From Candidatus Zhuqueibacterota bacterium (GTDB lineage: Bacteria > Zhuqueibacterota > QNDG01 > JABMRT01): a stretch of DNA of 64,000 nt. The notes below the pieces were generated by a model. That model searched no databases and was not told the DNA's origin. It saw only the letters and a list, made by a program, of their open reading frames with translations. Below are positions 42,009 to 54,729 of this stretch, in pieces. The stretch lies in NCBI GenBank assembly GCA_013202295.1, contig JABMRT010000064.1:3362-67361 (forward strand). The letters are read 5' to 3'. Position 1 is the stretch's first letter. Each line of letters starts with the position of its first letter. The position numbers and the translations under genes were made by a program.

Positions 42009-42068
42009 CCACTTGATAAACCATCCCCTAAGAAATCTTCATATTGTACTTTTTTTCACAAAAAACTA

Positions 42069-42097
42069 TTGACAAGAATAATTCTATTCTGTATATT
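42069..42097 (+). promoter_or_regulatory. Sigma-70-type promoter of the hydrogenase operon (TTGACA-17-TATATT)
   Basis: TTGACA 42069-42074, a 17-nt spacer, TATATT 42092-42097, with TG immediately upstream. It sits ~300 nt upstream of the first start codon. Confidence 0.5.
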
Positions 42098-42400
42098 CGA
42101 GAAGTATTGTGAAACAAAGTACAATAAGTCTAGAATCACATTTTTTTTGTTGAAGATATTTTCGTGTTCTTTGGCAATATCTCTTGAATGCACCCAACGC
42201 TGATTCCGATTGATAAATCGTCCTCAGATTTTTAAAATTGCGTCCTCCTTTCTGACAAGAATCCAAATTGTAATTCCAACACCATCCTCACTTATCAGCA
42301 TCTAATTCATTTAAGCATTCCCTTTACTCCAGAAACACTCTGATGGTATGCATTCAAGCTATTGCATGAATGGTATTCAATTCACAATAGGAGTACGCCG

Positions 42401-43438
42401 ATGCTGATAAAAGAACAGGCCTTGCTTTCATTTTTTGAAAAATGTGCAGATGGAAGTGTTGGAGCGTATTCAGAAGTTATTGTCCCTATCCTGACAGAAG
42501 GGCAGGATGGGCAAACTCGACTGGCTCCCTTCTCAAAAGAAAAAACATGCATTCTCGATGGATTCCGCTCAGTAGATCCCACAAAAATTCTCTATTACAT
42601 GCCTCGGGAAAAAGTGCTTCCCGTTGAAACATCCAACAAAAAACGTATTGTAGCTGGCGTGAAAGCCTGCGATGTCAAGGCCATGCAGGTGCTTGATACG
42701 GCCCTGGCCGGTGAGGATTTTGTGGATCCTGTGTATCAGGCGTGGCGTGAAGATACAGTGCTCATCAGCACGGATTGTTCCTCAACAGCGCCGACTTGTC
42801 ATTGCACGATTCTGGGCGGCACTCCCTATGCTGAATCCGGATTTGATCTGAATTTATCCAAACTGGGTGATTCCTACATTATCCAGACCGGATCGGAAAA
42901 AGGAGAGGCATTCCTCAAATTCCTCGAAAAGAACGCGGATGTTCAAAAATCAAACGACGCGGATGTGAAGGCCGTGCAGGACAACCGCAAGAAGATGGCC
43001 GATCAAGTGGCCGCGCAGAACAAGGATCTGGAACGGTCCGACAATTATCCCAATCTTCGAAAAGATATGGATAAAGAGTGGCCCGTGGCATCCGAGACCT
43101 GCGTGGGGTGTGGAGCATGTACAAATATTTGCCCGACCTGTTACTGTCTGATCCTGAATGATGAAACCAAGGCGCAACAGTTTGTGAAAGTGCGCGGTTA
43201 CGATTCCTGCCAGTGGCACGGATACGCGCGAGTCGCCGGCGGGGATTCACCCAGACCGAAGATGTCCCAGCGCTTCCGCAATCGTTATTTGTGTAAATTC
43301 CTCTTTATGCAGAGTAATTTCAATCAGCTGGGCTGCACAGGATGCGGCCGTTGCACAGAGGCTTGCGCGGGGAATATTGACTTCCGCAAAGTCGTGAAGC
43401 GGATTGTGGACGGCGTTGAAATGGCAGTGGTTGATTAA
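42401..43438 (+). CDS. AsrA / sulfhydrogenase-beta (HydB)-like 2x[4Fe-4S] subunit
   Basis: AGGAG RBS 7 nt upstream of ATG at 42401. Cys motifs CVGCGACTNICPTCYC and GCTGCGRCTEACAGNIDF. Confidence 0.65.
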   Translation: MLIKEQALLSFFEKCADGSVGAYSEVIVPILTEGQDGQTRLAPFSKEKTCILDGFRSVDPTKILYYMPREKVLPVETSNKKRIVAGVKACDVKAMQVLDTALAGEDFVDPVYQAWREDTVLISTDCSSTAPTCHCTILGGTPYAESGFDLNLSKLGDSYIIQTGSEKGEAFLKFLEKNADVQKSNDADVKAVQDNRKKMADQVAAQNKDLERSDNYPNLRKDMDKEWPVASETCVGCGACTNICPTCYCLILNDETKAQQFVKVRGYDSCQWHGYARVAGGDSPRPKMSQRFRNRYLCKFLFMQSNFNQLGCTGCGRCTEACAGNIDFRKVVKRIVDGVEMAVVD

Positions 43439-43473
43439 AGATTACAACCAACTATTTAAGTTGGAGGAGATAG

Positions 43474-44295
43474 ATGCAAAATCCATTTGAAGTGATTCCG
43501 GCTGAAATTTATGATGTGAAACAGGAGTCACCGCTGATCCGGACATTGAGCCTGAAACCGGAGAAACCGATCGAGTTCCAGACAGGTCAATTCATGGAAC
43601 TCACAATTCCAGGAGTCGGCGAGGCGCCTTTCACACCCTCCACCTCTCACTTTGTGAAAGACAAGATGGACATTACAATCATGAAAACAGGATTCATGAC
43701 CGAGTATGTGCATCAGGCCAAGGTGGGGGATAAGGTCGGACTGCGTGGACCGTTCGGTACGAATTATCCACTCGACAAATTCGAGGGCAAGGATTTGCTC
43801 ATCCTCGGCGGTGGATGTGGACTGGCGCCATTACGTTCGCTTTTCCTAACCCTGCTCGATGAAGTGGATCGATACAGGAGTATCACATTCCTGGCCGGCT
43901 CAAAAAGTCCCAAAGACTGCATTTACAAAGATGCGGCAGCCGGATGGAAAAAACATCCCACAGTAAAATTCCATCGTGCTGTCGATGTCGTCCCGGAAGG
44001 TGAAAAATGGGATGAGGATGTGGGTGTGGTCACAGTCCTTTTGAAAAAGAGTGAGATTGATCCGGCGAACAATCCGGCCGTGGTATGTGGACCGCCGGTC
44101 ATGATGAAATTCGGAACGATGGATCTGCTGAAAATGGGATATAAAGAAGAGAACATATATTTATCCATGGAAAAAAAGATGTATTGTGGGCATGGGCAGT
44201 GCCGTCATTGCGTAATGGGTGAATATTACGCGTGCAAGCACGGACCTGTGTTTCCTTACGCACAAATCAAGGATGAGGAGGCGATCTGGGAATGA
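43474..44295 (+). CDS. AsrB / sulfhydrogenase-gamma (HydG) / PyrK-like FAD-NAD(P)-binding subunit with C-terminal [2Fe-2S]
   Basis: GGAGG RBS. Ferredoxin-reductase-type FAD/NAD fold (...LAGGCGLAPLRS...). C-terminal CGHGQCRHCVMGEYYACKHGPVF. Confidence 0.65.
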   Translation: MQNPFEVIPAEIYDVKQESPLIRTLSLKPEKPIEFQTGQFMELTIPGVGEAPFTPSTSHFVKDKMDITIMKTGFMTEYVHQAKVGDKVGLRGPFGTNYPLDKFEGKDLLILGGGCGLAPLRSLFLTLLDEVDRYRSITFLAGSKSPKDCIYKDAAAGWKKHPTVKFHRAVDVVPEGEKWDEDVGVVTVLLKKSEIDPANNPAVVCGPPVMMKFGTMDLLKMGYKEENIYLSMEKKMYCGHGQCRHCVMGEYYACKHGPVFPYAQIKDEEAIWE

Positions 44296-44795
44296 AACGA
44301 CTAGTCATCGATGTCCCGGCCCTCATGGAATCCGATGTGCCGGCCGAAAAGATCAAATGCGAATATCTGTTTCACCGCAAGAATCCGGGCCCCTTCTCGG
44401 TGCTTGAAGTAGCAGAGTTCGCATCGTATTGCCGTCAATGCCGTGACGCCTTCTGCGTATCGGCCTGTCCGAAAGAGGCGCTTGAACGACAGGATGATGG
44501 TATGATCAAACGGTACAACATGCGCTGTGTGGGATGCAAGAGCTGTGTTCTGGCTTGCCCCTTCGGATGCATTTTTCCTGAGGTAATCAATTATATTACG
44601 GCCAAATGCGATAATTGTCTGAATCAACTCTCCGAAAATCCCGATTACCAGCCAGCCTGTGTCAAATCCGCACCTGCGGAAAGCTTCAGCATGCAGGATG
44701 TGGCCAAGGAAGATCCTGAAAATCATCTCTATTTTGTCGGAGATCATATCGCGGTCAAGAGCCCCGGATGGCGGCAGAAGGAGGGGAAAGCATGA
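44292..44795 (+). CDS. HycB/HydN-like 4Fe-4S polyferredoxin electron-transfer subunit
   Basis: CRQCRDAFCVSACP, CVGCKSCVLACP, CDNC...C. Overlaps the upstream gene by 4 nt. Confidence 0.65.
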   Translation: MKRLVIDVPALMESDVPAEKIKCEYLFHRKNPGPFSVLEVAEFASYCRQCRDAFCVSACPKEALERQDDGMIKRYNMRCVGCKSCVLACPFGCIFPEVINYITAKCDNCLNQLSENPDYQPACVKSAPAESFSMQDVAKEDPENHLYFVGDHIAVKSPGWRQKEGKA

Positions 44796-45715
44796 TAGGA
44801 CTCAAACTGCTTCTTCTCCTCGGCTTCATGCTGGGAACGGCCGTGTTCGGCCTGATCGTCGGATGGGTGGATCGCAAAGTGTCCGCGCGCGTGCAGTTCC
44901 GTGTGGGCCCGCCACTGCTTCAGAATTTTAATGACTTTTTTAAACTCATGGGCAAAGAGACTATCCTTGTCAAAGAGGGAATTCACTGGCTCTTCATTGC
45001 CGCACCGCTTGCAGCGTTCAGCATGCTGGCTGTGATCTCGACCATGATTTGGGTGGCTTTAATCCTGAATCAGGGATTCGGAGGCGATCTGATTGTCGTG
45101 ATGTATCTCATGATGATTTACTCTGTGATGATCGTGATTGGTGGATCCAGCACAGGGAATGTGTACTCCTCCATCGGTGCGGGGCGCGAAATCAAGCTCC
45201 TCCTGGGAGACGAACTGGTCTTTATTCTTGTTTGTCTGGTGCCGATTATTCAAACCAATTACGCGCTGCAGCTCGATCAAATCATTGCAAAACAAGCGGA
45301 AAACGGCATGGTGATCGGGTCCGTATCTGGTACGATCGCTTTTATTCTCGGGCTTCTCTGCATTCAGGCGAAAATAGCGATGCCGCCATTCCACATTGCC
45401 GAAGCTGAGACCGAACTGGTTGAGGGTCCGCTCATGGAGTACAGCGGTCCGCTGCTTGCCTTCTGGAAGCTTAACCATCACATGATGATTGTAGCCTATC
45501 CACTGCTTCTCGTTCTTCTCTTTTTCGGCGGATTCAATCTGCAGGGCATCGGCATTCTCTGGGCCGTTCTGAAATATCTTGTGATTGTGGTTTTAATGAT
45601 TCTGATTAAAAATACAAATCCCCGTATACGCATCGATACCGCGCTCCATTTCTTCTGGCGCATCGCTGCACCGCTGGGACTCATTGCTGTCATCTTAGCC
45701 GTTCTGGGAGTTTAA
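44792..45715 (+). CDS. Group-4 hydrogenase membrane subunit, NuoH/HycD/MbhM-like
   Basis: Start MIGLKLLLLLGF after a GGAGGGG RBS. Conserved GPPLLQNFNDFFKLMGKE. Confidence 0.7.
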   Translation: MIGLKLLLLLGFMLGTAVFGLIVGWVDRKVSARVQFRVGPPLLQNFNDFFKLMGKETILVKEGIHWLFIAAPLAAFSMLAVISTMIWVALILNQGFGGDLIVVMYLMMIYSVMIVIGGSSTGNVYSSIGAGREIKLLLGDELVFILVCLVPIIQTNYALQLDQIIAKQAENGMVIGSVSGTIAFILGLLCIQAKIAMPPFHIAEAETELVEGPLMEYSGPLLAFWKLNHHMMIVAYPLLLVLLFFGGFNLQGIGILWAVLKYLVIVVLMILIKNTNPRIRIDTALHFFWRIAAPLGLIAVILAVLGV

Positions 45716-45716
45716 T

Positions 45717-46136
45717 ATGGGATGGTATAACAAACGATTGGCCAAATCAATCTGGGTGTTTCATGTGAGTGCATCGCCGTGTAATAATTGCGATATCGAA
45801 ATCCTGGATTTGCTCACACCCAAATATGACGTTGAACGACTCGGCATCAAGCTGGTCGGCTCGGTCCGCCACGCAGATGTGCTTCTCGTATCCGGAGTGA
45901 TCAATCAGAAGGTTGCTCCAATGGTCAAAAAAATATACGAGCAGGCGCCGAAGCCGATTTTTGTGATGGGTGTCGGCACCTGTCCCTCAGGCGGATGCTG
46001 TTTCAACGACAGTTATAATATCGTGGAGAACCGGGAGGATGTTATTCCGTTCGACATCTACGTACCAGGATGTCCACCCAAACCTGAGGCCATGATTGCC
46101 GGAGCCGCAAAATTGATGGAGGTGCTGAATGGATAG
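45717..46136 (+). CDS. Group-4 [NiFe] hydrogenase small subunit, NuoB/HycG/MbhJ-like
   Basis: Proximal-cluster cysteines: CNNCDIE, GVGTCPSGGCC, PGCPP. Confidence 0.75.
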   Translation: MGWYNKRLAKSIWVFHVSASPCNNCDIEILDLLTPKYDVERLGIKLVGSVRHADVLLVSGVINQKVAPMVKKIYEQAPKPIFVMGVGTCPSGGCCFNDSYNIVENREDVIPFDIYVPGCPPKPEAMIAGAAKLMEVLNG

Positions 46137-46569
46137 AACTGACCGCACCGACGATTTCCTCAAGAAATTTGAAGGCAAATTAACGAATGTCATTCGCAAA
46201 CCGAAACGCCTCTATTTTGTGGTGGATGACAAGGATATCCGTGAAGTTGCACAGTATATCTTTCGCGACATGGCTTGCCGGCTCTCCACGGCCACAGCCA
46301 CCGAAGTGTATGACGCGATTGAAGTCCTTTATCAATTTTCTCATGATCCCTCAGGGTGTTATTTCTGCCCTCGTGTCCGGATCAAAGATAAAAAGAATCC
46401 AACTATGAATTCCATAACGCCCGTTGTGAAGGGCGCAAATTGGATCGAACGTGAAATGTTTGACTTCTGGGGCGTGACGTTTAAAGATCACCCCCGGCCT
46501 GAACCGCTTCTTTCCAGGAATCATCCGAACAAGCTCGATAAACCGCTCCGGTTCGGGAGGGTCTCATGA
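46129..46569 (+). CDS. NuoC-like (30-kDa) hydrogenase subunit, MbhK-like
   Basis: EREMFDFWGVTFKDHPRPEPLL motif. Confidence 0.7.
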   Translation: MDRTDRTDDFLKKFEGKLTNVIRKPKRLYFVVDDKDIREVAQYIFRDMACRLSTATATEVYDAIEVLYQFSHDPSGCYFCPRVRIKDKKNPTMNSITPVVKGANWIEREMFDFWGVTFKDHPRPEPLLSRNHPNKLDKPLRFGRVS

Positions 46570-47759
46570 AACTGAGTGAAAACATGAATCAAGTGCCGGT
46601 CGGTCCGTTTCATCCCTTACTCGAAGAAGCCGAATATTTCAATTTGACGGTCGAAGGTGAGACTGTTGTCGATATCGATCTTGACATCGGCTGGATGCAT
46701 CGGGGCCATGAATTTATTTCTGAACAGAAAACATTTACGCAATCCATATTTCTTGTCGAACGCATTTGCGGGATCTGTTCTACTTCGCATCCATTAGCCT
46801 GCGTACACGCGATTGAGGATGTGGACAATATTGAGATTCCCGAACGCGCGGCCTATATCCGCACTCTCGTGGGCGAGCTAGAACGGATTCACAGCCATTT
46901 GCTCTGGCTAGGCTTGGCAGGCCATTTCATCGGGTATGACACACTTTGGATGTGGGCGTGGAAGTACCGCGAACCGGTGCTTCAGATGTTCGAAATCATT
47001 TCCGGCAACCGGAATCACTATGGGGTCATGCGTGTGGGTGGTGTGTCACGCGATATTGATTTGGATCGTGTGAAGGAACTCCACAAAATCCTCGACACGG
47101 TGGATGCCAAAATCAAGATGATCGCCGCAGCTGCGCCGGATGATCCTGTCCTTAAATCCCGTCTTGTGGGTGTGGGCGTGCTCACCAATCAGGATGCGAT
47201 TGACATGTGTGCGGTTGGGCCCACATCCCGTGCTTCTGGTGTTCCGTGGGACGTCCGAAAAGACGAACCCACCGATGCCTATGGCTTGGTTGATTTTGAT
47301 GTCATCGTCCTTCAAAATGGAGATGTGTGGGACAAACTGGTTGTCAGGCTGCTCGAGACTTTGGAATCCACAAAGATATGCCGTCAATGCCTCGACAAAC
47401 TGAAAACCGTGAAGGGGCCCATCCTGAATAACGTGAAAGAGATTTCCGCGGGCGAGGGAATTGGCCGGTATGAAGCTCCCCGCGGTGAAGTGTTTCATTA
47501 TGTGCGAACTGATGGTTCCAACCGGGCGATTCGTCACAAAATCCGAGCACCGAGTTATGTGAATATTCCGACCTATTCGGCCTCTTGTAAGGGTATCCCC
47601 ATTGCCGACGCACTGATCACGTTGGCCGCGGTAGATCCCTGCTATTGTTGCACGGAGCGGGCGCTCAGGGTGAAGGGCGAAGATCCCGACGCCATTGATT
47701 TTGTCAAGCTGTCGCGTGAGAAGACCGAGCGAATCAGGAGGGAAATCCATGGCCACTAA
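46566..47759 (+). CDS. Group-4 [NiFe] hydrogenase large (catalytic) subunit, NuoD/MbhL-like, both Ni-Fe cysteine pairs present
   Basis: L1 motif RICGICSTSH near the N-terminus. L2 motif DPCYCCTER (DPCxxCxxR) ~20 aa from the C-terminus. Confidence 0.8.
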   Translation: MKLSENMNQVPVGPFHPLLEEAEYFNLTVEGETVVDIDLDIGWMHRGHEFISEQKTFTQSIFLVERICGICSTSHPLACVHAIEDVDNIEIPERAAYIRTLVGELERIHSHLLWLGLAGHFIGYDTLWMWAWKYREPVLQMFEIISGNRNHYGVMRVGGVSRDIDLDRVKELHKILDTVDAKIKMIAAAAPDDPVLKSRLVGVGVLTNQDAIDMCAVGPTSRASGVPWDVRKDEPTDAYGLVDFDVIVLQNGDVWDKLVVRLLETLESTKICRQCLDKLKTVKGPILNNVKEISAGEGIGRYEAPRGEVFHYVRTDGSNRAIRHKIRAPSYVNIPTYSASCKGIPIADALITLAAVDPCYCCTERALRVKGEDPDAIDFVKLSREKTERIRREIHGH

Positions 47760-49563
47760 TCCTTATATCGCATTGATTCTAATTCCGATTGTTGTCGGTC
47801 TGGTCAATCTAATCTTACCGAGATTGCTGCAAAAAATCCTGACATTAATCGGAATTGGTCTCACCGGATTTCTGACATTGAAGCTTGCCCTCGATCCCGA
47901 ATTTTTTGAGTGGATCTATGAGATCCAATATCTCGGATTAGACAAACTGGGAATTTTCGCACTGGTGGGTATGCAGGTCCTGGCCTTGATTATCCTACTT
48001 TTTGCGCTCAAAGGAGTCAACTCCGACATAGAAAGATCCTTCTTTATACTCTATCCCCTGACCGTGGGATTTTGCAATGGCGTGATTCTGTCTGACCACG
48101 CAATCGTATTCATGGTTTTCTGGGGTCTGTCCGGAGTGACACTGTATCTGTTCAACCTTCTTGGCCGGGGAAAAGAAGCCTCAGAATCCGCTCGAAAAAC
48201 CTTCATGCTCATCGGTGGAAGCGACGCGTGTCTCATCCTTGGATTCGTCATGCTGGGACTTGCCATGCCGCAGGCATCCTGGTCCATTACGGCCATGCAG
48301 ATGCCGCTCTCTGGAAGTATCGCAATCATCGCGTTTGTCTGCCTGCTGATCGCTGCGCTTGCCAAAGCTGGCGGATTTCCATTCCATACATGGGTGCCAT
48401 CCTATTCAAAAGAGGCTCCTGTTGAAAGCGTGGCATTTCTTCCTGCTTCTCTGGACAAGATTCTGGGTATCTATCTACTGGCCCGTATGGTGATGCAGAT
48501 TTTTCAATGTGCCATACTGGTTCACATGATTCTGATCAGCATCGGCGCGATCACGGTCATTGCCGCTGTGATGATGGCGCTCATTCAGCACAATGGGCGC
48601 AAATTGCTTGGATACCATGCCGTCAGTCAGGTGGGGTACATGATCATGGGCGTGGGCAGCGGTTCACCGATCGCTTTCGCTGGTGGACTTTTTCATATGC
48701 TCAACCATACCATTTACAAATCCAACCTGTTTCTGGCGTTGGGATCTGTAGAAAAGCAAACCGGAACGAATGAACTTGATGATCTTGGCGGGCTTGGCAA
48801 GAAGATGCCGATCACGCTGATCATGGCCATGGTTGGCGCATTCTCTATTTCGGGACTTCCACCGTTTAATGGATTCTTCTCTAAGTGGATGATCTATCAG
48901 GGGCTGCTGGATTTGGCCAAAGAGGTTTCGCCCGGATATGAAATATGGCTCCTGGTCTGTTTCGTCCTGGCCATTTTCGGAAGCGCGCTGACATTGGCCA
49001 GTTTCCTGAAATATCTGCATGCCATTTTCCTGGGCAAACTTCCGAAAAAGTATGACAAGATCAAGGAAGCGCCGATCAACCAATGGCTGTCCACCGGACT
49101 GTTGTCAGCTCTTTGCGTTGTACTCGGATTATTTGCTATGGAGCTTCCGTTAAAAATGCTCATCCTTCCTATTCTTGAAGAGAACGGCATGGCCGGATTT
49201 GAGTATGCGGGCCTCTATAAATCCAAATTTACTTTGGTCATGATGGGGCTGGTTTTCCTCATCGGGCTAATTACTTACATTCTGACACGAAAAGTCCGGT
49301 TCGATGCGATATATCTTGGCGGCATGGATGCACTTGAAAAGTTCCGTGTCACAGGCACCGAGTTCTATCAAGAAATTCGCCGGATGAAACCGCTCTGTAC
49401 GATTTATGACTGGGCCGAGAAAAAGTGGCTGGATCTGTACGCGCTGTTGGGCGGCTGTTCCAATTCCCTCGGTGGATTGTTCCAGAAGGCACATCCGGGA
49501 TTGTTATCCCTGTACCTGCTTTATATAGTGTTGGGGATGTTGGTATTTATGCTATTAAAATAG
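47750..49563 (+). CDS. NuoL/MrpA-N-terminal-like antiporter subunit (MbhH-like family)
   Basis: Start reassigned to MATNPYIALILIP, overlapping the large-subunit stop. Conserved ...GYHAVSQVGYM...FHMLNHTIYKSNLFL... Confidence 0.7.
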
Positions 49564-49569
49564 CACACG

Positions 49570-49589
49570 GTATACGCTACAACGTATAC
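49570..49589. promoter_or_regulatory. GTATAC-N8-GTATAC palindromic site in the only sizeable intergenic gap of the hydrogenase operon
   Basis: GTATACGCTACAACGTATAC. The arms GTATACG/CGTATAC form a 7-bp inverted repeat. The same architecture occurs at 62152-62171. Confidence 0.4.
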
Positions 49590-49661
49590 GGATGATCCGA
49601 TTCTGTTTGCTGTGTACTGAGAGCTGAATACTCGATCTAGCTGATCGATGAGGAGGAATAT

Positions 49662-50210
49662 ATGCCGGTTGAAACATGGTTGTACTTTACACTGGGATTC
49701 ATGATACTCGGCTCCATTATCGCACTGGAGATCAAAGACATTCTCTCTTCCATTGTCGCGATCGGGGTTGTGGGGCTGGGTGTTTCTGTGGCGTTCCTAT
49801 TTTTGCAGGCACCGGATCTGGCAATTGTTCAGTTCCTTTTTGAAATTTTCGCAATGATCATTCTCGTCCGGGCTTTTGTGAAGAAGGACTATCATGCCGA
49901 GACACCAGCGCGAGTCAACGGATTTCTTGTGGCGATCTCGATGCTTGTCATTATCGCGATATTCGTTTCTAGTATCTCCGTTTTCAAATTACTGCCTCCT
50001 TTTGGTCAGCCTCTCTTTGAAACGGCTCAGCATTATGTGGATCATGGTGTGCGGGAGACCGGTGCTGTGAATCTAGTGACTGCAATCATTCTTGACTACA
50101 GGGCCTATGATACGTTGGGTGAAGTCACCGTTCTATTTACAGCCATTCTCGGTACAATTACAATTTTACGCATACGAAACGGGAAAAATGCGGGGAGGAA
50201 GGGCGCATGA
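49662..50210 (+). CDS. MrpA-C-terminal-domain-like (DUF4040 + MnhB-like) antiporter subunit
   Basis: GAGGAGG RBS. C-terminal ...GAVNLVTAIILDYRAYDTLGEVTVLFTAILG, typical of the MnhB-like region. Confidence 0.6.
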   Translation: MPVETWLYFTLGFMILGSIIALEIKDILSSIVAIGVVGLGVSVAFLFLQAPDLAIVQFLFEIFAMIILVRAFVKKDYHAETPARVNGFLVAISMLVIIAIFVSSISVFKLLPPFGQPLFETAQHYVDHGVRETGAVNLVTAIILDYRAYDTLGEVTVLFTAILGTITILRIRNGKNAGRKGA

Positions 50211-50659
50211 ATGATCCGAAAAATGGTATGACCCTGATTGTAAAAACCGTAACCCGGGTGACGGTCTGGCTCATTGTGCTGTACGGGATTTATCTGATCC
50301 TGCACGGCCATCTCACACCCGGTGGTGGATTTGGGGGCGGAGTGATCCTTGCGCTGGCGTTTCTAAATATTATGCTGGCCTACGGGCGAGATGCCACACA
50401 GAAATGGCTCAATATTAAATTCCTTGAAGACATAGAAGCCGTGAGTGCGACACTCTTTCTGTTTATGGGTATACTCGGTATCGCTCTGGGCGGACGTTTT
50501 CTGATGAATTTCCTACCTAAAGGAACCCCGCACGCTTTGTTTAGTGCCGGAACCATTCCCATATTAAATATTCTGATCGGCATCAAAGTGGCGATGTCCC
50601 TTTTCCTTGTGGTCTGGGTACTTGCCGGTTTGCATGAAGAGGAAGGAGGCAAAAAATGA
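50207..50659 (+). CDS. MrpB/MnhB-like antiporter subunit
   Basis: HGHLTPGGGFGGG signature. Confidence 0.65.
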   Translation: MNDPKNGMTLIVKTVTRVTVWLIVLYGIYLILHGHLTPGGGFGGGVILALAFLNIMLAYGRDATQKWLNIKFLEDIEAVSATLFLFMGILGIALGGRFLMNFLPKGTPHALFSAGTIPILNILIGIKVAMSLFLVVWVLAGLHEEEGGKK

Positions 50660-50994
50660 TCCTCTATCTGATGTGTTTTGCGCTTTTCCTCGTCGGCGTT
50701 TATGGATTGCTCACCAAGCGGGATCTGATCAAACTGATCCTTTCCATTGCGGTTATGGGTTACGCGGTGAATCTGTTTCTTATCCTCTTTGCTTATAAGA
50801 AGGATGCAGGGATTCCGATTCTTCTTGAGGGGGTAGTGCAGGGTTCCATGGTGGATCCATTGCCACAAGCACTCGTTCTCACCTCTATCGTTATTGAACT
50901 GGGAACAACGGCATTGCTCGTGGCGCTGGCCATCCGGCTGGTTCAGAAATATAAAACCTTTGATATTACCAAAATCAGGAGGCTTTTCGGATGA
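50656..50994 (+). CDS. MrpC/NuoK-like antiporter subunit
   Basis: ~110-aa 3-TM protein, MILYLMCFALFLVGVYGLLTKRDLIKLILSIAV. Confidence 0.65.
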   Translation: MILYLMCFALFLVGVYGLLTKRDLIKLILSIAVMGYAVNLFLILFAYKKDAGIPILLEGVVQGSMVDPLPQALVLTSIVIELGTTALLVALAIRLVQKYKTFDITKIRRLFG

Positions 50995-52466
50995 TCCTCC
51001 CGTACTTTATTGCCATCCCGCTGCTGTCGGCTTTTCTGATTTCACTGATCGCCGGGAAAAAAGATTACTGGGCCATTTTGCTTTCCACAGTTGCCGGAGC
51101 CTCATTGCTGATCCTGTCCATCTACAGTATGATTGTGCAGAATGGTGAGACCCTGGTTTATGAGATGGGATTCTGGAAAGTGCCCATCGGTATTGTGCTT
51201 GTGCAGGACGCACTTACCTGTCTGATGCTGGTCCTCGTGAGTTTAATCTCCTTTACTTCCCTTCTCTATTCAGTGCAATATATCCAGCACATGGATCGGA
51301 ATTGGAAATACTACGCCCTGTTTATGCTGCTCGTCACTGGGATGAACGGCGTCATCATTACGGGCGATCTGTTCAATCTGTTCGTGTTTATGGAAATCGC
51401 ACTGCTGTCTGCTTTCGCACTTGTCGCGTATGGCGGCAAGGCAGAAGAGTATGAGGCAGCCTTTAAATATGCGGTTATGGGTGCATTGTCCTCAATCCTC
51501 GTACTTGTGGGTATAGCAATCCTGTACAGCGCCACGTCCACATTGACCATGGCGAAAATCGCTGAGAAGGTGCCTTCGCTTGATCCCAAACTGCTTTTTT
51601 GGGTCGGCGGGATATTCCTCGCTGGTCTGGGACTGAAAGCGGCCATTATGCCGTTCCACGCCTGGCTGCCTGATGCTCACTCCTCAGCACCTGCACCGAT
51701 TTCAGCCATGCTTTCTGGAGTATTAATCAAAGTGCTCGGCATTTATGCCATGATTCGTCTTTACTTCAATGTGTTTGGCGCACCGGAACTTTACATGAAT
51801 ATCTTTCTCGTACTCGGCGCGATTTCCATCATTCTTGGCGGACTGCTCTCCGTCGTGCAATGGGATATGAAGCGATTACTGGCCTATTCCAGTGTCAGCC
51901 AGATCGGGTATATCCTCGTCGGTTTGGGCATTGGGACAGAGCTTGGAATACTGGGTGCGATTTTCCATCTGTTTAGCCATGCCATTTTCAAATCACTTCT
52001 CTTTTATAATGCCGGTGCGGTCGAGATGGCGCTTGGTACACGCGACCTGCGCAAGATGGGATTTCTCGGCAAGGTGATGCCGGTTACATCAGCGACCTCT
52101 CTTGTGGGCGGCTTGGCGATTTCTGGGATCCCGCCGTTTAATGGATTTATCAGCAAGCTGATCATTATCATTGCACTCATCAAAGCGGATGCTCCGGTTT
52201 ACGCGATCCTTGCTATCATTGGCAGCATTTTGACTCTCGGCGCGATCATGAAGATGCAGCGATATGGATTCCGCGGTGAAACAGAGATCACAAAAATCAC
52301 AGAGAAAATCGGATGGCGCATGCAATCCGCTATGATCCTTTTGGCGGTGTTGTGTTTGTTGTCCGGCTTGTTGCTGCTGCCGGGGATTCGTGAAGCCGCA
52401 CTTGATCCGGTCGTGGCCGTACTCGCTGATCCAGGTCAATACATGCAGCTGGTTCTTGGGAGATAA
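50991..52466 (+). CDS. MrpD/NuoM/NuoN-like antiporter subunit
   Basis: 14-TM protein with ...FHAWLPDAHS... and ...YSSVSQIGYIL... motifs. Confidence 0.7.
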   Translation: MILPYFIAIPLLSAFLISLIAGKKDYWAILLSTVAGASLLILSIYSMIVQNGETLVYEMGFWKVPIGIVLVQDALTCLMLVLVSLISFTSLLYSVQYIQHMDRNWKYYALFMLLVTGMNGVIITGDLFNLFVFMEIALLSAFALVAYGGKAEEYEAAFKYAVMGALSSILVLVGIAILYSATSTLTMAKIAEKVPSLDPKLLFWVGGIFLAGLGLKAAIMPFHAWLPDAHSSAPAPISAMLSGVLIKVLGIYAMIRLYFNVFGAPELYMNIFLVLGAISIILGGLLSVVQWDMKRLLAYSSVSQIGYILVGLGIGTELGILGAIFHLFSHAIFKSLLFYNAGAVEMALGTRDLRKMGFLGKVMPVTSATSLVGGLAISGIPPFNGFISKLIIIIALIKADAPVYAILAIIGSILTLGAIMKMQRYGFRGETEITKITEKIGWRMQSAMILLAVLCLLSGLLLLPGIREAALDPVVAVLADPGQYMQLVLGR

Positions 52467-52468
52467 TC

Positions 52469-52974
52469 ATGCAAATTAAAACGCGAAGTCGAATTACTGT
52501 GTTTGTTTTATCCCTTCTGGTCTGGATTGCCTTGACCAGTATTCGGGACCCACAGGAATTGATCGCCGGACTCATTGTATCCGCTCTTGTGGCTATGATT
52601 GCCGGTCAATTTTTGATTACGACTGAAAAGCAGAAGCATCCTGTGCACCGGATTCTGGCAGCAATTCTGTATTTCTTTAATTTCCTTTGGGAAATGATCA
52701 AAGCAAACATTCAGGTCGCTTATCTGGTACTTCATCCAATCTGCCAATCAAACCCGGAATTGTAAAAATCAAAACCAATTTAACCAAAGATGCGGCAATT
52801 ACGGTATTGACCAATTCCATTACCCTGACACCGGGCACATTGACTGTAGATGTCAATCCCAAGAGCAAAGAGATCTATGTGCACTGGATCAATGTGAAAT
52901 CTCAGGACGTGAAGGAGGCCACTGAAATGATCGGCGGTAAATTTGAGAGCAGACTCATGGAGGTGTTCGAATGA
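52469..52974 (+). pseudogene. mrpE-like gene interrupted by an apparent -1 frameshift (1-bp deletion) near 52750
   Basis: Two overlapping ORFs: 52469..52765 ends ...AYLVLHPICQSNPEL*. The conserved MrpE continuation ...NLPIKPGIVKIKTNL...ITLTPGTLTVDV... is in the +2 frame (52687..52974). An extra A in CCAA|TCTG would give HPNLPIKPGIV. Confidence 0.5.
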
Positions 52975-53309
52975 AGATTCTGCGATGGCTGATCGGACTG
53001 ATCCTGATAGGTCTGTTCGCTTATTATAATTTTATCGTGTATCAGGGACCCATCCTGTTCAAGCTCATTCAGGTGAGTTTGTTCTGCTCGGTCTTTGTGC
53101 TTTTCCGTGTGCTTTTCGGTCCTTCACCTGCTGATCGGATCGTGGCCGTGGATATCCTTGGCATTCTGATTATCGGACTGCTCGCCCTTTTGGGGCTTCA
53201 TTACCAAGCTGATTTCTACATGGATATCGCTCTGATCTGGGCGCTGCTGAGTTTTATCGCCTCTCTGGCGTTTGCCAAAATTCTTGAAGGGAGGTCTCTC
53301 GATGATTAG
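52971..53309 (+). CDS. MrpF-like antiporter subunit
   Basis: ~110-aa 3-TM protein in the conserved position after mrpE. Confidence 0.55.
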   Translation: MKILRWLIGLILIGLFAYYNFIVYQGPILFKLIQVSLFCSVFVLFRVLFGPSPADRIVAVDILGILIIGLLALLGLHYQADFYMDIALIWALLSFIASLAFAKILEGRSLDD

Positions 53310-53640
53310 AGAAATTGCAGGGATGACATTTATCATAGTCGGAATCGCGTTCGATTTTTTTGGCGTGCTCGGACTGGTCCGCCTGCCTGATGTGTATAAC
53401 CGGCTACAGGCAGCAACCAAATGTGTGACCTTTGGTACAGCCGGATTGCTCTTTGGTGTATTCATCCTTCAGGGATTTAATGCATTTGGATTCAAGGCGC
53501 TGATCGGGATTGTTTTCATCTTTCTCGCGGCCCCGGTTGCAGCCCATGCCATTGCCCGATCGGCCCATCGAAGCGGAATTCCACTTACATCAGAAACTGT
53601 CGTGGATGCCTATGAAGAAGACCATGAGATGAAGGAGTAA
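53302..53640 (+). CDS. MrpG/MnhG-like antiporter subunit
   Basis: GGAGGT RBS. MIREIAGMTFIIVGIAFDFFGVLGLVRLPDVYNRLQAATKCVTFG, an MnhG signature. Confidence 0.65.
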   Translation: MIREIAGMTFIIVGIAFDFFGVLGLVRLPDVYNRLQAATKCVTFGTAGLLFGVFILQGFNAFGFKALIGIVFIFLAAPVAAHAIARSAHRSGIPLTSETVVDAYEEDHEMKE

Positions 53641-53645
53641 GTGTT

Positions 53646-54254
53646 ATGTGGCTCCCAAAAATACGTGAATTGAAAGAGGCAATCGGTTCTCTTTTTTCAG
53701 CGCCTTATACCACAAAATTCCCTGCGGATATGAGCGCGGTTGACCTGCCTGATGGATTTCGCGGCAAACCCAAATATGATACGGATGCCTGCATCGGATG
53801 TGGTACATGCGCACAAGTCTGCCCGCCCGGTGCCATAGATATCATTGATGATAAAAATAAGATGACGCGCACGCTTCGCGTGGATTATAACCGGTGCATG
53901 AATTGTGGACAGTGCGAAGAAAAATGCATCACAGAAACCGGAATCACCATGACCAAAGATTTCGTCCTGGTGTTGACCGACAGATCCGATCCATCGGCAT
54001 TTGAATCGGTCGAAAAAGAATTGGTTGTTTGCGAAAGCTGTGGCGCGATTATCGGGTGTAAAGACCATCTTGCATGGATTAAAGACCGCTTGGGCGCCAA
54101 GGCGTATGCGCATCCCAATTTGCTCTTATGGACTCAAGAACAATTTGCCGAGCCAGGCCCCGCTGAAGTCAAGAGTCGCATCCGGCGCGAGGATCAGATG
54201 AAGCAGGTCTGCGCGAAATGTCGGTACCAGATTGTCACAGCTGATGAATTCTAA
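53646..54254 (+). CDS. NuoI/HycF/MbhN-like 2x[4Fe-4S] subunit with extra C-terminal Cys pairs
   Basis: CIGCGTCAQVCPPGAI, CMNCGQCEEKC, plus CESCGAI and CAKCRYQ. Confidence 0.7.
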   Translation: MWLPKIRELKEAIGSLFSAPYTTKFPADMSAVDLPDGFRGKPKYDTDACIGCGTCAQVCPPGAIDIIDDKNKMTRTLRVDYNRCMNCGQCEEKCITETGITMTKDFVLVLTDRSDPSAFESVEKELVVCESCGAIIGCKDHLAWIKDRLGAKAYAHPNLLLWTQEQFAEPGPAEVKSRIRREDQMKQVCAKCRYQIVTADEF

Positions 54255-54729
54255 TTCATTTCAAGATGTGCTTTCTGCCTATCCCATAGAATCCATAGTG
54301 TTTATCGGATTGGGAAATCCGATGCGATCTGATGACGGTGCAGGACTCATCTTGCTGCAACATTTAAAACAATCCAAATCTTTTCAAAACGCCCGATTCA
54401 TTGAAGCGGGCACCAATCCCGAAAATTATCTTCAAGCCATTCTTGATCTAAATCCGCAAGCCGTGGTTTTTATTGATGCGGCTCGGTTCGGTCAGCCTTC
54501 CGGCACAATTCAGTGGCTAACCCAACAGGATCTGGATCAGATTCAAATTAGCACACATGCCTTTTCTATGACATTGGTTGAAGATTATATTCGGGCCCAT
54601 CAGAAAGTGGATTTTCATTATCTGGGGATACAGCCTGAAACGACAGCACTGGGAACAGGACTCACAACCCATGTACAAGAGAATCTGGATGGATTCCTGG
54701 TGCAACCTGAGATGAATACGGCATCCTGA
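54232..54729 (+). CDS. Hydrogenase maturation endopeptidase (HycI/HyaD family)
   Basis: FIGLGNPMRSDDGAG motif. Consistent with the large-subunit C-terminal extension after DPCxxCxxR. Confidence 0.7.
   Translation: MSQLMNSNSFQDVLSAYPIESIVFIGLGNPMRSDDGAGLILLQHLKQSKSFQNARFIEAGTNPENYLQAILDLNPQAVVFIDAARFGQPSGTIQWLTQQDLDQIQISTHAFSMTLVEDYIRAHQKVDFHYLGIQPETTALGTGLTTHVQENLDGFLVQPEMNTAS

What the first reader, a model, noticed from the sequence alone, without database searches (positions are those of the whole stretch)
42069..54729. One operon joins an AsrA/AsrB-like NAD(P)H module to an Mbh-type group-4 [NiFe] hydrogenase carrying a complete Mrp antiporter module
Seventeen co-oriented genes have overlapping or <=36-nt junctions. 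The single exception is the 99-nt gap at 49564-49661, which carries the GTATAC site. The gene order is:
- a sulfhydrogenase-beta/AsrA-like 2x[4Fe-4S] protein;
- a gamma/AsrB/PyrK-like FAD-NAD(P) protein with a C-terminal [2Fe-2S] motif;
- a HycB-like polyferredoxin;
- NuoH-like, NuoB-like small and NuoC-like subunits;
- a large subunit retaining both Ni-Fe ligand motifs (RICGICSTSH and DPCYCCTER), so it is a real hydrogenase and not an Mbx/complex-I-like derivative;
- NuoL/MrpA-N, MrpA-C-like, MrpB (PGGGFGGG), MrpC, MrpD, MrpE, MrpF and MrpG;
- a NuoI-like subunit and a HycI protease.

Described Mrp-Mbh complexes take electrons from ferredoxin, formate or CO modules. A pyridine-nucleotide-type beta/gamma entry module wired through a HycB-like subunit into an ion-translocating hydrogenase is not an arrangement I can place in a named subgroup. 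It would imply NAD(P)H/H2 interconversion coupled to an ion gradient, an energetically unusual direction.
Basis: partly seen in the sequence, partly recalled or inferred. Interest (0 to 1): 0.7.

Follow-up and report, generated by a model that had tools for sequence, protein, structure and literature searches.

The report
Mbh hydrogenase operon with NAD(P)H module
This is a real 17-gene operon for a membrane-bound, ion-pumping nickel-iron hydrogenase that carries a built-in NAD(P)H-type electron entry module in place of the usual ferredoxin, formate or CO input; the design is conserved in many sediment bacteria and has been noticed in genomes before, but it has never been tested biochemically.

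Summary
Window 42401-54729 (+) encodes 17 tightly packed genes:
- sulfhydrogenase beta- and gamma-like subunits and a HycB-like subunit;
- MbhM/J/K/L-like core subunits, with both Ni-Fe CxxC motifs intact;
- a full MrpA-G set;
- a HycF-like subunit and a HycI protease.

hypDEF lies nearby.

The beta-gamma-HycB trio is an integral part of the enzyme:
- It sits immediately upstream of the hydrogenase genes in 60 of 61 related genomes (KSB1, Ignavibacteria, Calditrichota, Marinimicrobia, Aminicenantes).
- It does so in 26 of 26 loci of the nearest sister clade.
- All cofactor cysteines are invariant.
- In cultured Kosmotoga olearia (66% identical large subunit) the three genes share a predicted transcription unit with the catalytic genes and covary with them in expression (r 0.94-0.99).

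The NuoI-like subunit carries the HycF-type four-cysteine extension, which contacts HycB in E. coli formate hydrogenlyase.

My reading is an "NAD(P)H hydrogenlyase". NAD(P)H would pass electrons through FAD and an Fe-S wire to [NiFe], coupled to ion translocation. Direction depends on H2 pressure. This function is inferred, not shown.

The arrangement is not unprecedented. It has been catalogued in Kosmotoga and called "enigmatic" in Saganbacteria and Elusimicrobia. mrpE carries a frameshift in this genome.

The parts
42042..42126 (+). Putative promoter/operator region. A sigma-70-like site, TTGACA-17-TATATT, lies at 42069-42097. It is bracketed by a 20-nt inverted repeat (42042-42061 and 42107-42126, 95% complementary).
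   Evidence: function not tested
42401..43438 (+). Beta subunit: sulfhydrogenase-beta/AsrA-like Fe-S protein with 16 invariant Cys.
   Evidence: Pfam Fer4_22 3.6e-26. Best PDB hit is P. furiosus sulfhydrogenase I beta, 9nez_B, 1.8e-40. NCBIfam ShyB 158 bits, HydB 141 and AsrA 116, all below their cut-offs. Cys conservation in 62 sequences.
43474..44295 (+). Gamma subunit: FAD/NAD(P)-binding protein with a C-terminal [2Fe-2S] motif (C238, C243, C246, C254).
   Evidence: Pfam FAD_binding_6, NAD_binding_1 and DHODB_Fe-S_bind. Best PDB hit 9nez_C, 2.6e-49. The GGGxGxxPxRS motif and the four Cys are invariant in 69 sequences.
44292..44795 (+). HycB/CooF-like connecting ferredoxin. Twelve invariant Cys, so about three [4Fe-4S] clusters.
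   Evidence: Pfam Fer4_11. PDB hits HDCR HycB4 7qv7_B and FHL HycB 7z0s_B. Cys conservation. ATGA overlap with the gamma gene.
44768..45715 (+). NuoH/MbhM-like membrane subunit.
   Evidence: Pfam NADHdh 1.8e-61
45717..46136 (+). NuoB/MbhJ-like small subunit carrying the proximal [4Fe-4S] cluster.
   Evidence: Pfam Oxidored_q6. C22, C25, C89 and C119 are invariant.
46129..46569 (+). NuoC/MbhK-like subunit.
   Evidence: Pfam Complex1_30kDa
46566..47759 (+). [NiFe] large subunit, MbhL-like. It has a HycE-like 32-aa C-terminal extension after DPCYCCTER.
   Evidence: Best PDB hit 6cfw_L at 1.7e-82, 41.9% identity. C68, C71, C359 and C362 are invariant in 82 sequences.
47749..49563 (+). MrpA N-terminal/NuoL-like antiporter-type subunit.
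   Evidence: Pfam Proton_antipo_M. Best PDB hit MrpA 7qru_A at 4e-42.
49662..50210 (+). Fused MbhD+MbhE (MrpA C-terminal-like) subunit.
   Evidence: Pfam MbhD and MbhE
50207..50659 (+). MrpB/MnhB
   Evidence: Pfam MnhB 6e-28
50656..50994 (+). MrpC/NuoK-like
   Evidence: Pfam Oxidored_q2
50991..52466 (+). MrpD antiporter-type subunit.
   Evidence: Pfam Proton_antipo_M 6e-69
52469..52974 (+). MrpE, interrupted by a 1-nt deletion near 52736. It reads as two ORFs, 52469-52765 and 52687-52974.
   Evidence: Pfam MNHE positions 2-77 and 72-145 fall in two frames. DNA alignment with L004 and L005. The same lesion is in the separately assembled contig L164.
52971..53309 (+). MrpF
   Evidence: Pfam MrpF_PhaF
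53302..53640 (+). MrpG
   Evidence: Pfam PhaG_MnhG_YufB
53646..54254 (+). NuoI-type subunit of the HycF kind. It has two [4Fe-4S] motifs plus a C-terminal extension with a Cys quartet (C129, C132, C189, C192).
   Evidence: Pfam and NCBIfam PRK12387. A profile of orthologues hits E. coli HycF 7z0s_F best, at 3.5e-28. The quartet aligns to HycF C117, C120, C155 and C158. The role of that extension in FHL is described in PMC9474812.
54244..54729 (+). HycI-type maturation endopeptidase.
   Evidence: Pfam HycI; NCBIfam TIGR00072 at 98.7 bits, above its cut-off
54751..56106 (+). Membrane histidine kinase (PilS-like 6TM, HisKA, HATPase_c), 21 nt downstream of hycI. It may be co-transcribed.
   Evidence: Pfam. 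An orthologue lies downstream of the operon in 33 of 49 loci.
59716..64000 (-). hypE (59716-60882), hypD (60767-61858) and hypF (62177 to the window end): [NiFe] maturation genes near the operon.
   Evidence: Pfam AIRS/AIRS_C, HypD 1.1e-156, and the HypF domains

Best explanation
The operon encodes a single membrane complex. It is an Mbh-type group-4 [NiFe] hydrogenase with a complete Mrp ion-translocation module. Its peripheral arm is built like that of formate hydrogenlyase (HycB-like plus HycF-like), but it ends in a sulfhydrogenase-type beta/gamma diaphorase instead of a formate dehydrogenase.

Proposed electron path, inferred from homology:
1. NAD(P)H
2. FAD (gamma)
3. [2Fe-2S] (gamma)
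4. [4Fe-4S] clusters (beta)
5. about three [4Fe-4S] clusters (HycB-like)
6. two [4Fe-4S] clusters (HycF-like)
7. the proximal [4Fe-4S] cluster (MbhJ-like)
8. [NiFe], where 2H+ becomes H2

Turnover would be coupled through the MbhM-like subunit and the Mrp subunits to H+/Na+ movement.

The reaction is close to equilibrium. The direction should therefore depend on H2 pressure and on the NAD(P)H/NAD(P)+ ratio:
- At the very low H2 of sediments, NAD(P)H-driven H2 evolution could proceed and perhaps pump ions.
- At high H2 it would need the ion gradient, or it would run as an H2:NAD(P)+ reductase.

Shown here: gene content, cofactor motifs, conserved linkage, and co-expression in a cultured relative. 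Inferred: subunit contacts, NAD(P)H as the substrate, the coupling ion and the direction.
For: - Domains and motifs.
- Beta and gamma are closest to P. furiosus sulfhydrogenase I beta and gamma, the NADPH module of a group 3b hydrogenase: 9nez_B at 1.8e-40 and 9nez_C at 2.6e-49.
- The large subunit is closest to MbhL.
- The beta-gamma-HycB trio is colinear upstream in 60 of 61 genome loci across at least five phyla, and downstream genes are complete in 49 of 49. It is also present in 26 of 26 loci of the nearest sister clade, whose large subunits are 50-60% identical.
- Every predicted Fe-S, FAD/NAD and Ni-Fe ligand is invariant in 52-82 orthologues.
- The gamma/HycB-like and HycB-like/NuoH-like genes overlap.
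- The HycF-type Cys quartet in the extension that contacts HycB in E. coli FHL is conserved.
- In K. olearia, Kole_0568-0575 is one Rockhopper-predicted transcription unit. Beta, gamma and HycB-like transcripts track the large subunit at r = 0.94-0.99.
- A Rex (NADH/NAD+ sensor) homologue lies within 400 nt upstream of the beta gene in 23 of 37 sister-clade loci and 4 of 53 loci of the window's own clade.
Against: - There is no biochemical evidence for any member.
- Beta and gamma score below the NCBIfam cut-offs for ShyB/HydB and HydG/ShyC, so substrate specificity cannot be transferred with confidence.
- NAD(P)H to H2 is endergonic under standard conditions. This is my own knowledge: E0' is -320 mV against -414 mV.
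- Rex also controls ferredoxin-linked fermentation genes, so its presence is not specific.
- A quarter to a third of sister-clade loci insert a molybdopterin-like gene between gamma and HycB-like (8 of 26). That hints that beta/gamma can serve a different primary dehydrogenase.
- In this genome mrpE is frameshifted, and in K. olearia the NuoL/MnhB gene is annotated as a pseudogene. The complex may therefore be impaired in both.
- Expression in K. olearia on pyruvate is low (RPKM about 40-200).
Confidence: 0.55

Rival explanations
1. This is a ferredoxin-driven Mbh with an NAD(P)+ branch. Reduced ferredoxin is the main donor, as in P. furiosus Mbh. The beta/gamma-HycB arm is a second outlet or inlet. 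The complex would then act as an ion-pumping ferredoxin:NAD(P)+ oxidoreductase and hydrogenase in one, or would oxidise ferredoxin and NAD(P)H together to make H2.
For: - The large subunit is most similar to the ferredoxin-dependent MbhL.
- HydDB treats Mrp-linked and 4g enzymes as known or putative ferredoxin-coupled.
- The many surface Fe-S clusters in beta and HycB-like could offer a ferredoxin docking site.
- Energetically, ferredoxin would make ion pumping easy. This point is my own knowledge.
Against: - The NuoI-type subunit is of the HycF kind, with the HycB-contacting extension, not the short MbhN kind (139 aa in 6cfw_N against 202 aa here). The usual ferredoxin site is therefore probably covered.
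- No flavin-based bifurcation module is recognisable. Beta has no flavin domain in Pfam.
- The trio is retained in 86 of 87 loci, which is not expected for an optional side branch.
Confidence: 0.2
2. This is a formate-hydrogenlyase-type complex whose primary dehydrogenase is encoded elsewhere, as fdhF is in E. coli. A molybdopterin enzyme would dock on HycB-like and HycF-like, and beta/gamma would only tune or share the electron flow with NAD(P).
For: - A HycB-like subunit and the HycF-type Cys quartet that sits near the FdhF interface in E. coli FHL are present.
- 8 of 26 sister-clade loci carry a divergent molybdopterin-like gene between gamma and HycB-like. The Saganbacteria cluster is described the same way.
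Against: - There is no molybdopterin gene in the operon in 60 of 60 loci of the window's own clade, nor in 18 of 26 sister loci.
- I found none among the large ORFs of the 64-kb window that I scanned.
- The inserted proteins score poorly against Pfam molybdopterin models (1e-5 to 1e-7 on one domain only).
Confidence: 0.1
3. Beta and gamma are a sulfur or sulfite reductase module. Either they are a dispersed AsrAB with asrC elsewhere, or they form a sulfhydrogenase-like S0/polysulfide reductase that uses H2 made or taken up by the hydrogenase.
For: - There is homology to AsrA and AsrB (TIGR02910 at 1.7e-33, TIGR02911 at 9.2e-58) and to sulfhydrogenase 'sulfur reductase' beta (source names).
Against: - Scores are far below the AsrA and AsrB equivalog cut-offs (116 against 323, and 195 against 289).
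- No asrC/siroheme gene is in the operon in any of 87 loci.
- Linkage and co-expression with the hydrogenase are strict.
Confidence: 0.05

Closest known systems
Pyrococcus furiosus membrane-bound hydrogenase Mbh (PDB 6CFW; HydDB group 4d)
   Same: - MbhL is the best solved-structure match of the large subunit (1.7e-82, 41.9% identity).
- It has the same core (MbhJ/K/L/M/N-like) joined to Mrp-derived membrane subunits, including MbhD/E-, MnhB-, MnhC-, MrpE/F/G-like proteins.
   Different: - Mbh takes electrons from ferredoxin directly at a short MbhN (139 aa) and has one antiporter-type subunit (MbhH).
- Here there are two (MrpA-N-like and MrpD-like), a HycF-type NuoI subunit, and three extra genes (beta, gamma, HycB-like).
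- The gene order also differs.
Escherichia coli formate hydrogenlyase FHL-1 (PDB 7Z0S; group 4a)
   Same: - A HycB-type multi-cluster ferredoxin is present.
- So is a HycF-type subunit whose C-terminal Cys quartet aligns residue for residue.
- The large subunit has a HycE-like C-terminal extension, and a HycI protease is encoded.
- The logic of a soluble dehydrogenase wired into a group-4 hydrogenase is the same.
   Different: - FHL uses FdhH (Mo/Se) as the input, has a fused NuoC-NuoD large subunit, and has no Mrp module.
- Here the input is a flavoprotein pair, NuoC and NuoD are separate, and a full Mrp set is present.
Pyrococcus furiosus sulfhydrogenase I beta/gamma (PDB 9NEZ; group 3b NADPH-linked hydrogenase)
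   Same: - These are the best solved matches for both proteins (1.8e-40 and 2.6e-49).
- The same Cys motifs and the FAD/NAD(P) and [2Fe-2S] motifs are present.
   Different: - In group 3b, beta/gamma dock on a cytosolic alpha/delta hydrogenase dimer. Here the partner would be a HycB-like subunit of a membrane complex.
- The scores are below the NCBIfam equivalog cut-offs.
Kosmotoga olearia Kole_0560-0574 cluster
   Same: - It has the same gene set in the same order.
- Its large subunit is 66% identical and represents the nearest 50%-identity cluster.
- It is listed as a hydrogenase cluster in Pollo et al. 2017 (PMC5674127), following Schut et al. 2012.
   Different: - It is a Thermotogae host.
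- The NuoL/MnhB/MbhD gene is annotated as a pseudogene.
- No function is assigned to the beta/gamma genes in the text I could read.
'Mbh-Mrp-oxidoreductase' clusters of Saganbacteria RX5A and Elusimicrobia (PMC6349859; bioRxiv 10.1101/765248)
   Same: - asrA-like, asrB-like and cooF-like genes sit next to an Mrp-Mbh-type group-4 hydrogenase. The authors proposed them as an oxidoreductase module of unknown function.
   Different: - Those clusters also contain an unclassifiable molybdopterin protein. I found that form in 8 of 26 sister-clade loci.
- The window's form lacks it.
Thermococcus onnurineus Mrp-linked formate/CO-respiring hydrogenases (HydDB group 4b)
   Same: - A group-4 hydrogenase, a full Mrp module and a dedicated soluble dehydrogenase are encoded in one cluster (description).
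   Different: - The input enzymes are formate dehydrogenase or CO dehydrogenase, not a flavoprotein.
- I made no sequence comparison with these, because no reference sequence was available to me.

Membership tests
Group 4 (energy-converting) [NiFe] hydrogenase | Large subunit with the N-terminal RxCGxCxxxH and C-terminal DPCxxCxxR Ni-Fe ligand motifs | tested here: met
   RICGICSTSH and DPCYCCTER are present. C68, C71, C359 and C362 are invariant in 82 sequences.
Group 4 (energy-converting) [NiFe] hydrogenase | NuoB-like small subunit with one [4Fe-4S] cluster, plus NuoC-, NuoH- and NuoI-like partners | tested here: met
   Pfam Oxidored_q6, Complex1_30kDa, NADHdh and Fer4. Four invariant Cys in the small subunit.
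Group 4 (energy-converting) [NiFe] hydrogenase | Maturation: a C-terminal extension with a HycI-type endopeptidase, and Hyp proteins | tested here: met
   A 32-aa extension aligns with that of HycE. The HycI gene is at 54244-54729. hypDEF is at 59716-64000.
Group 4 (energy-converting) [NiFe] hydrogenase | H2 evolution or uptake activity coupled to ion translocation | not testable with these tools
   Needs enzyme assays.
Mrp-linked Mbh type (HydDB 4d) | Mrp antiporter subunits encoded with the hydrogenase | tested here: met
   MrpA-N, MbhD/E, MnhB, MnhC, MnhD, MnhE, MrpF and MnhG are all present. mrpE is frameshifted in this genome.
Mrp-linked Mbh type (HydDB 4d) | Reduced ferredoxin as the direct electron donor | not testable with these tools
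   The architecture argues for a different or additional donor: the HycB-like subunit, the HycF-type extension and beta/gamma.
Mrp-linked Mbh type (HydDB 4d) | Placement of the large subunit in the 4d cluster by the HydDB classifier | not tested
   HydDB is not available here. The protein is 41.9% identical to MbhL. Apart from the Kosmotoga cluster (66%), an unnamed cluster (55%) and scattered partial sequences, other 50%-identity clusters are at most 47% identical. 4g is an alternative placement.
Formate hydrogenlyase (group 4a) | A HycB-type ferredoxin and HycF with a C-terminal Cys4 metal site | tested here: met
Formate hydrogenlyase (group 4a) | A fused NuoC-NuoD (HycE-type) large subunit | tested here: not met
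   NuoC (46129-46569) and NuoD (46566-47759) are separate genes. The sister clade does have the fusion.
Formate hydrogenlyase (group 4a) | A formate dehydrogenase H partner | tested here: not met
   No molybdopterin gene is in the operon, nor among the scanned large ORFs of the window. The rest of the genome was not seen.
Sulfhydrogenase (group 3b) beta/gamma module | Membership of the ShyB/HydB and ShyC/HydG equivalog families | tested here: not met
   The proteins are homologous but below the cut-offs: 158 against 690, 141 against 750, 177 against 650 and 163 against 600 bits.
Sulfhydrogenase (group 3b) beta/gamma module | FAD- and NAD(P)-binding motifs and [2Fe-2S] in gamma; multiple [4Fe-4S] motifs in beta | tested here: met
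Sulfhydrogenase (group 3b) beta/gamma module | Encoded with cytosolic group-3 alpha and delta subunits | tested here: not met
   The partner genes are group-4 and Mrp genes in 86 of 87 loci.
Anaerobic sulfite reductase AsrABC | AsrA and AsrB equivalog scores, with an adjacent asrC (siroheme subunit) | tested here: not met
   TIGR02910 scores 116 against a cut-off of 323, and TIGR02911 scores 195 against 289. No asrC-like gene lies next to the pair in any locus.

The most novel reading that the evidence does not exclude
A large, phylogenetically coherent clade of group-4 [NiFe] hydrogenases has large subunits at least about 50% identical to this one. It is found in KSB1, Ignavibacteria, Calditrichota, Marinimicrobia, Aminicenantes, Kosmotoga and a big sister clade in sediment metagenomes.

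On the most novel reading, this clade is a distinct functional class: an ion-translocating NAD(P)H:H+ oxidoreductase, or 'NAD(P)H hydrogenlyase'. It would link the pyridine-nucleotide pool directly to H2 and to the membrane potential, without ferredoxin or flavin-based bifurcation.

Such an enzyme would let fermenters in H2-scavenged sediments conserve energy from NAD(P)H-driven H2 formation, or spend ion gradient to force it. It would also be a living analogue of a complex-I precursor that already has a nucleotide-oxidising head.
Probability: 0.4. Interest if true: 0.8.

Novelty: new variant of a known kind. Interest (0 to 1): 0.55.

Why it matters
All biochemically characterised energy-converting (group 4) hydrogenases take electrons from ferredoxin, formate or CO. 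HydDB lists no NAD(P)H-coupled subgroup.

If this widespread enzyme really couples NAD(P)H and H2 to an ion gradient, several things follow:
- It changes how H2 production and consumption are budgeted for abundant uncultured sediment and water-column phyla.
- It offers an alternative to electron bifurcation for disposing of NADH as H2.
- It provides a natural example of a complex-I-like machine with a flavin nucleotide-oxidising module and protons as the acceptor. That bears on how complex I acquired its NADH head.

The hypothesis is directly testable, because a cultured organism, Kosmotoga olearia, carries and expresses an orthologous cluster.

Tried and rejected
1. Dispersed sulfite reductase. 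Rejected on the equivalog cut-offs, the absence of asrC, and the strict linkage and co-expression.
2. Mbx/MBS-like non-hydrogenase. Rejected because the Ni-Fe Cys, HycI and hypDEF are all present.
3. Chance juxtaposition or a lineage-specific insertion of beta/gamma. Rejected by 60 of 61 and 26 of 26 colinear loci.
4. A general Rex operator upstream of the operon. Only 5 of 74 upstream regions hold a site with 3 or fewer mismatches, against a background of about 0.04 per 400 nt. That is too weak to claim.
5. Riboswitch or other RNA leader. No Rfam match was found anywhere in the window at gathering thresholds.
6. Type-strain genome papers for Ignavibacterium album, Melioribacter roseus and Caldithrix abyssi. 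They describe no group-4 hydrogenase, so they gave no prior description. The KSB1 review does not mention hydrogenases.
7. HydDB subgroup assignment. The classifier is unavailable, the stored supplement is truncated to the [FeFe] entries, and Greening 2016 and Schut 2012 are not held.
8. Reaching distant beta homologues through a second protein search. The top 120 hits were all from the same clade at about 50% identity, so it added no new context.
9. The meaning of the K65-HP and K65-LP samples in the Kosmotoga data. I could not find a definition.
10. Multimer docking of beta/gamma to HycB-like. This is not possible with the single-chain predictor offered, and I did not attempt it.

Full report
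**1. What is in the sequence**

The window comes from a candidate division KSB1 bacterium. The large-subunit and beta proteins are 100% identical to NCBI entries of that name.

Between 42401 and 54729 on the + strand there are 17 genes with overlapping or very short junctions. Pfam and NCBIfam identify them as follows:
- a sulfhydrogenase-beta/AsrA-like Fe-S protein;
- a gamma/AsrB/PyrK-like FAD-NAD(P) protein with a C-terminal [2Fe-2S] motif;
- a HycB/CooF-like ferredoxin;
- NuoH-, NuoB- and NuoC-like subunits;
- a [NiFe] large subunit;
- MrpA-N/NuoL-like, fused MbhD+MbhE, MnhB, MnhC, MnhD, MnhE, MrpF and MnhG;
- a NuoI-type subunit;
- a HycI protease.

The finding's start, 42069, coincides with the best promoter-like match in the region. 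A perfect 15-bp hairpin at 41976-42008 separates the operon from the upstream gene.

- The long gap is 98 nt and has two GTATAC copies.
- mrpE is broken by a single-base deletion.
- A histidine-kinase gene follows hycI after 21 nt.

hypE, hypD and hypF lie about 5 kb downstream on the other strand.

**2. Is the beta/gamma pair part of the hydrogenase?**

This was the crux, and the comparative evidence is strong.

*Genome loci.* A scan of one genome per species found 134 genomes with a close relative of the large subunit. The best 80 are 72-89% identical. They come from KSB1, Ignavibacteria/Melioribacteraceae, Calditrichota, Marinimicrobia and Aminicenantes/Acidobacteriota MAGs.
- Of 61 loci with enough upstream sequence, 60 have beta, gamma and HycB-like genes in the same order directly upstream of nuoH.
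- All 49 loci with enough downstream sequence have the complete Mrp-NuoI set.
- The one exception, L044, has lost beta. It carries a NuoI-like::GltD-like fusion gene a little further upstream.

*Sister clade.* In the 50%-identity cluster library the window's clade is isolated. The nearest representative is Kosmotoga olearia (66%), and the next is an unnamed fused NuoC-NuoD type (55%). Beyond a few partial sequences, the rest are at most 47% identical.

I used the 55% outgroup to scan metagenomes.
- All 26 loci with enough upstream sequence again carry beta-gamma-HycB upstream.
- Eight of them have a divergent molybdopterin-like gene inserted between gamma and HycB-like.

The trio is therefore an ancestral, retained feature of a deep clade of Mrp-linked group-4 hydrogenases.

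*Cofactor ligands.* Every predicted ligand is invariant across 52-82 orthologues:
- 16 Cys in beta;
- the GGGxGxxPxRS nucleotide loop and four [2Fe-2S] Cys in gamma;
- 12 Cys in HycB-like;
- 8 + 4 Cys in the NuoI-type subunit;
- 4 Cys in the small subunit;
- the four Ni-Fe Cys.

*Transcript evidence from a cultured relative.* In K. olearia the orthologous genes Kole_0560-0574 are listed as a hydrogenase cluster.
- The Rockhopper transcription-unit table puts Kole_0568-0575 in one unit. That unit holds the large subunit, NuoC, NuoB, NuoH, HycB-like, gamma, beta and a hypothetical protein.
- From the published RPKM table I computed log-scale correlations with the large subunit over the 11 Illumina samples. 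Beta gave 0.987, gamma 0.986 and HycB-like 0.943. Neighbouring non-operon genes ranged from -0.38 to 0.86.

**3. What kind of complex is it?**

- The large subunit is most like P. furiosus MbhL (1.7e-82, 41.9% identity). E. coli HycE comes next.
- The large subunit has a HycE-like 32-residue C-terminal extension, which fits the HycI gene.
- Beta and gamma are most like the beta and gamma subunits of P. furiosus sulfhydrogenase I, the NADPH-oxidising module of a group 3b enzyme. They fall below the NCBIfam cut-offs for ShyB/HydB, ShyC/HydG, AsrA and AsrB. They are therefore a separate subfamily.
- The NuoI-type subunit is 202 aa, against 139 aa for MbhN. A profile of its orthologues hits E. coli HycF best (3.5e-28).
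- That profile aligns the conserved quartet C129/C132/C189/C192 onto HycF Cys117/120/155/158. In the FHL structure this quartet binds a metal in the C-terminal extension that contacts HycB and lies near the FdhF interface (PMC9474812).

The peripheral arm is thus of the formate-hydrogenlyase type. The catalytic core is Mbh-like. The membrane arm is a complete Mrp set with two antiporter-type subunits.

**4. How it most likely works**

By homology, electrons would run from NAD(P)H through the following chain:
1. FAD and [2Fe-2S] in gamma;
2. the [4Fe-4S] clusters of beta;
3. about three clusters in HycB-like;
4. two clusters in the HycF-like subunit;
5. the proximal cluster of the small subunit;
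6. the [NiFe] site.

Conformational coupling to H+/Na+ translocation would go through the MbhM-like and Mrp subunits. The subunit contacts, the donor, the ion and the direction are all inferences.

The thermodynamics below are my own calculation from standard potentials.
- NADH to H2 is +18 kJ/mol at 1 bar H2.
- At 1-10 Pa H2 the H+/H2 couple rises to about -270 to -295 mV.
- A reduced NADPH pool sits near -370 mV.
- H2 evolution then yields roughly 15-20 kJ/mol, about enough for one translocated ion.
- At high H2 the enzyme would have to consume the gradient, or run as an H2:NAD(P)+ reductase.

The 'unusual direction' is therefore plausible in H2-scavenged sediments.

A supporting but non-specific hint is a Rex homologue immediately upstream of beta. 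Rex is an NADH/NAD+ sensor: the gene was identified by Pfam, and the sensor role is my own knowledge. It occurs in 23 of 37 sister-clade loci and 4 of 53 loci of the window's clade.

**5. Rival readings**

- *A ferredoxin-driven Mbh with an NAD(P) branch* is the main alternative (0.2).
- *An FHL-type enzyme whose molybdopterin partner is encoded elsewhere* is suggested by the sister-clade insertion form. The partner gene is absent from all 60 informative loci of this clade (0.1).
- *A sulfite or sulfur reductase role* is unlikely (0.05).

Independently of these, the complex may be impaired in this particular genome. The mrpE frameshift is also present in a separately assembled JGI contig that differs at 3 of 7476 positions. 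It looks real rather than a random assembly error.

**6. Comparison with what is known, and novelty**

HydDB describes group-4 subgroups coupled to formate, CO or ferredoxin, plus 4g of unknown function. None is NAD(P)H-coupled.

The gene arrangement itself has been seen before:
- the Kosmotoga cluster;
- the 'enigmatic' Saganbacteria hydrogenase with asrA-, asrB- and cooF-like genes plus a molybdopterin protein;
- the 'Mbh-Mrp-oxidoreductase type' of Elusimicrobia, with 'function unknown'.

I found no paper that proposes or tests NAD(P)H coupling. None documents how widespread and invariant the trio is in the Fibrobacteres-Chlorobi-Bacteroidetes (FCB)-group phyla. My ten literature searches covered open-access text only, and the key review (Schut et al. 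2012) could not be read.

I therefore rate it a new variant of a known kind. It is already catalogued as genes but uncharacterised as an enzyme, and this window is one more member of it. Interest is moderate (0.55). The specific locus is ordinary for its clade, but the clade poses a clear and testable bioenergetic question.

Noticed in passing
window 52730-52740 (mrpE, 52469-52974): A single-base deletion in a CCC run (CATCCAAT here, CATCCCAAT in L004 and L005) splits mrpE into two overlapping ORFs. The same lesion is in a separately assembled JGI contig (L164, 3 mismatches in 7476 nt). It could be a real inactivating mutation, a split protein, or programmed frameshifting.
   Followed up: partly
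window 42042-42126: A 20-nt inverted repeat (TATTGTACTTTTTTTCACAA / TTGTGAAACAAAGTACAATA, 95% complementary, 45 nt apart) brackets the predicted -35/-10 of the operon. Each arm resembles a TGTGA-N6-TCACA (CRP/FNR- or Rex-like) site with one good half. It is a possible operator pair.
   Followed up: partly
window 54751-56106: A membrane histidine kinase (PilS-like 6TM, HisKA, HATPase_c) starts 21 nt after hycI, with no terminator-like site in between. An orthologue follows the operon in 33 of 49 related loci. No response regulator lies next to it in the window.
   Followed up: partly
L102 5372-5995 and 26 other loci (for example L029, L007, L014, L052): A Rex-type redox-sensing repressor gene (Put_DNA-bind_N plus CoA_binding) lies 70-390 nt upstream of the beta gene. 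This is so in 23 of 37 sister-clade loci and 4 of 53 loci of the window's clade. It is not present in the window itself.
   Followed up: yes
L092 3977-5653; also L088, L090, L091, L097, L099, L100, L103, L140: In a subset of sister-clade operons a 540-570 aa protein sits between the gamma and HycB-like genes. It matches only the Molydop_binding domain weakly (1e-5 to 1e-7) and starts with a CxxCxxxC motif. It is probably the 'unclassifiable molybdopterin oxidoreductase' reported for Saganbacteria.
   Followed up: partly
L044 3440-6777: This is the only locus lacking the beta gene. About 1 kb of AT-rich non-coding DNA takes its place. Upstream lie a CBS-domain gene and a 621-aa fusion of a NuoI-like 2x[4Fe-4S] domain with a GltD/NfnB-like FAD/NAD(P) oxidoreductase. 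It may be a replacement partner for the gamma subunit.
   Followed up: partly
Kosmotoga olearia Kole_0555-0575 (PMC5674127, supplementary tables S2-S4): Kole_0567 (the NuoL/MnhB/MbhD region) is annotated as a pseudogene. The whole cluster, including the hyp genes, is 4-5 times higher in sample K65-HP than in K65-LP. I could not find what those labels mean.
   Followed up: partly
window 40001-42000 and 56001-58000: Both flanks of the operon are markedly AT-rich (GC 0.35 and 0.36, against 0.46-0.50 inside). The left flank holds a Fic-domain gene (40411-41553) and an 84-aa ORF with no Pfam match. The right flank holds an ABC-transporter ATPase and a membrane protein with no Pfam match. These may be recent insertions.
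   Followed up: no
window 59079-59651 (-): An IS200-like Y1 transposase gene lies between the ABC-transporter genes and hypE.
   Followed up: no
window 4418-19670 (-): A run of very large surface-protein genes. It includes a 2340-aa protein with HYDIN/VesB-like Ig, SdrD-B and DUF1573 repeats, DUF11-repeat proteins of 920 and 616 aa, and a 1030-aa protein with no Pfam match.
   Followed up: no
window 3002-4162 (+): A 386-aa protein with a twin-arginine signal and a C-terminal 2x[4Fe-4S] domain. Its first ~300 residues have no Pfam match.
   Followed up: no
window 49564-49661: The only long intergenic gap in the operon carries a short direct repeat, ACG(G)TATACG, with two GTATAC palindromes 14 nt apart. 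The gap length varies among orthologues (12 nt in L003, 167 nt in L001).
   Followed up: partly
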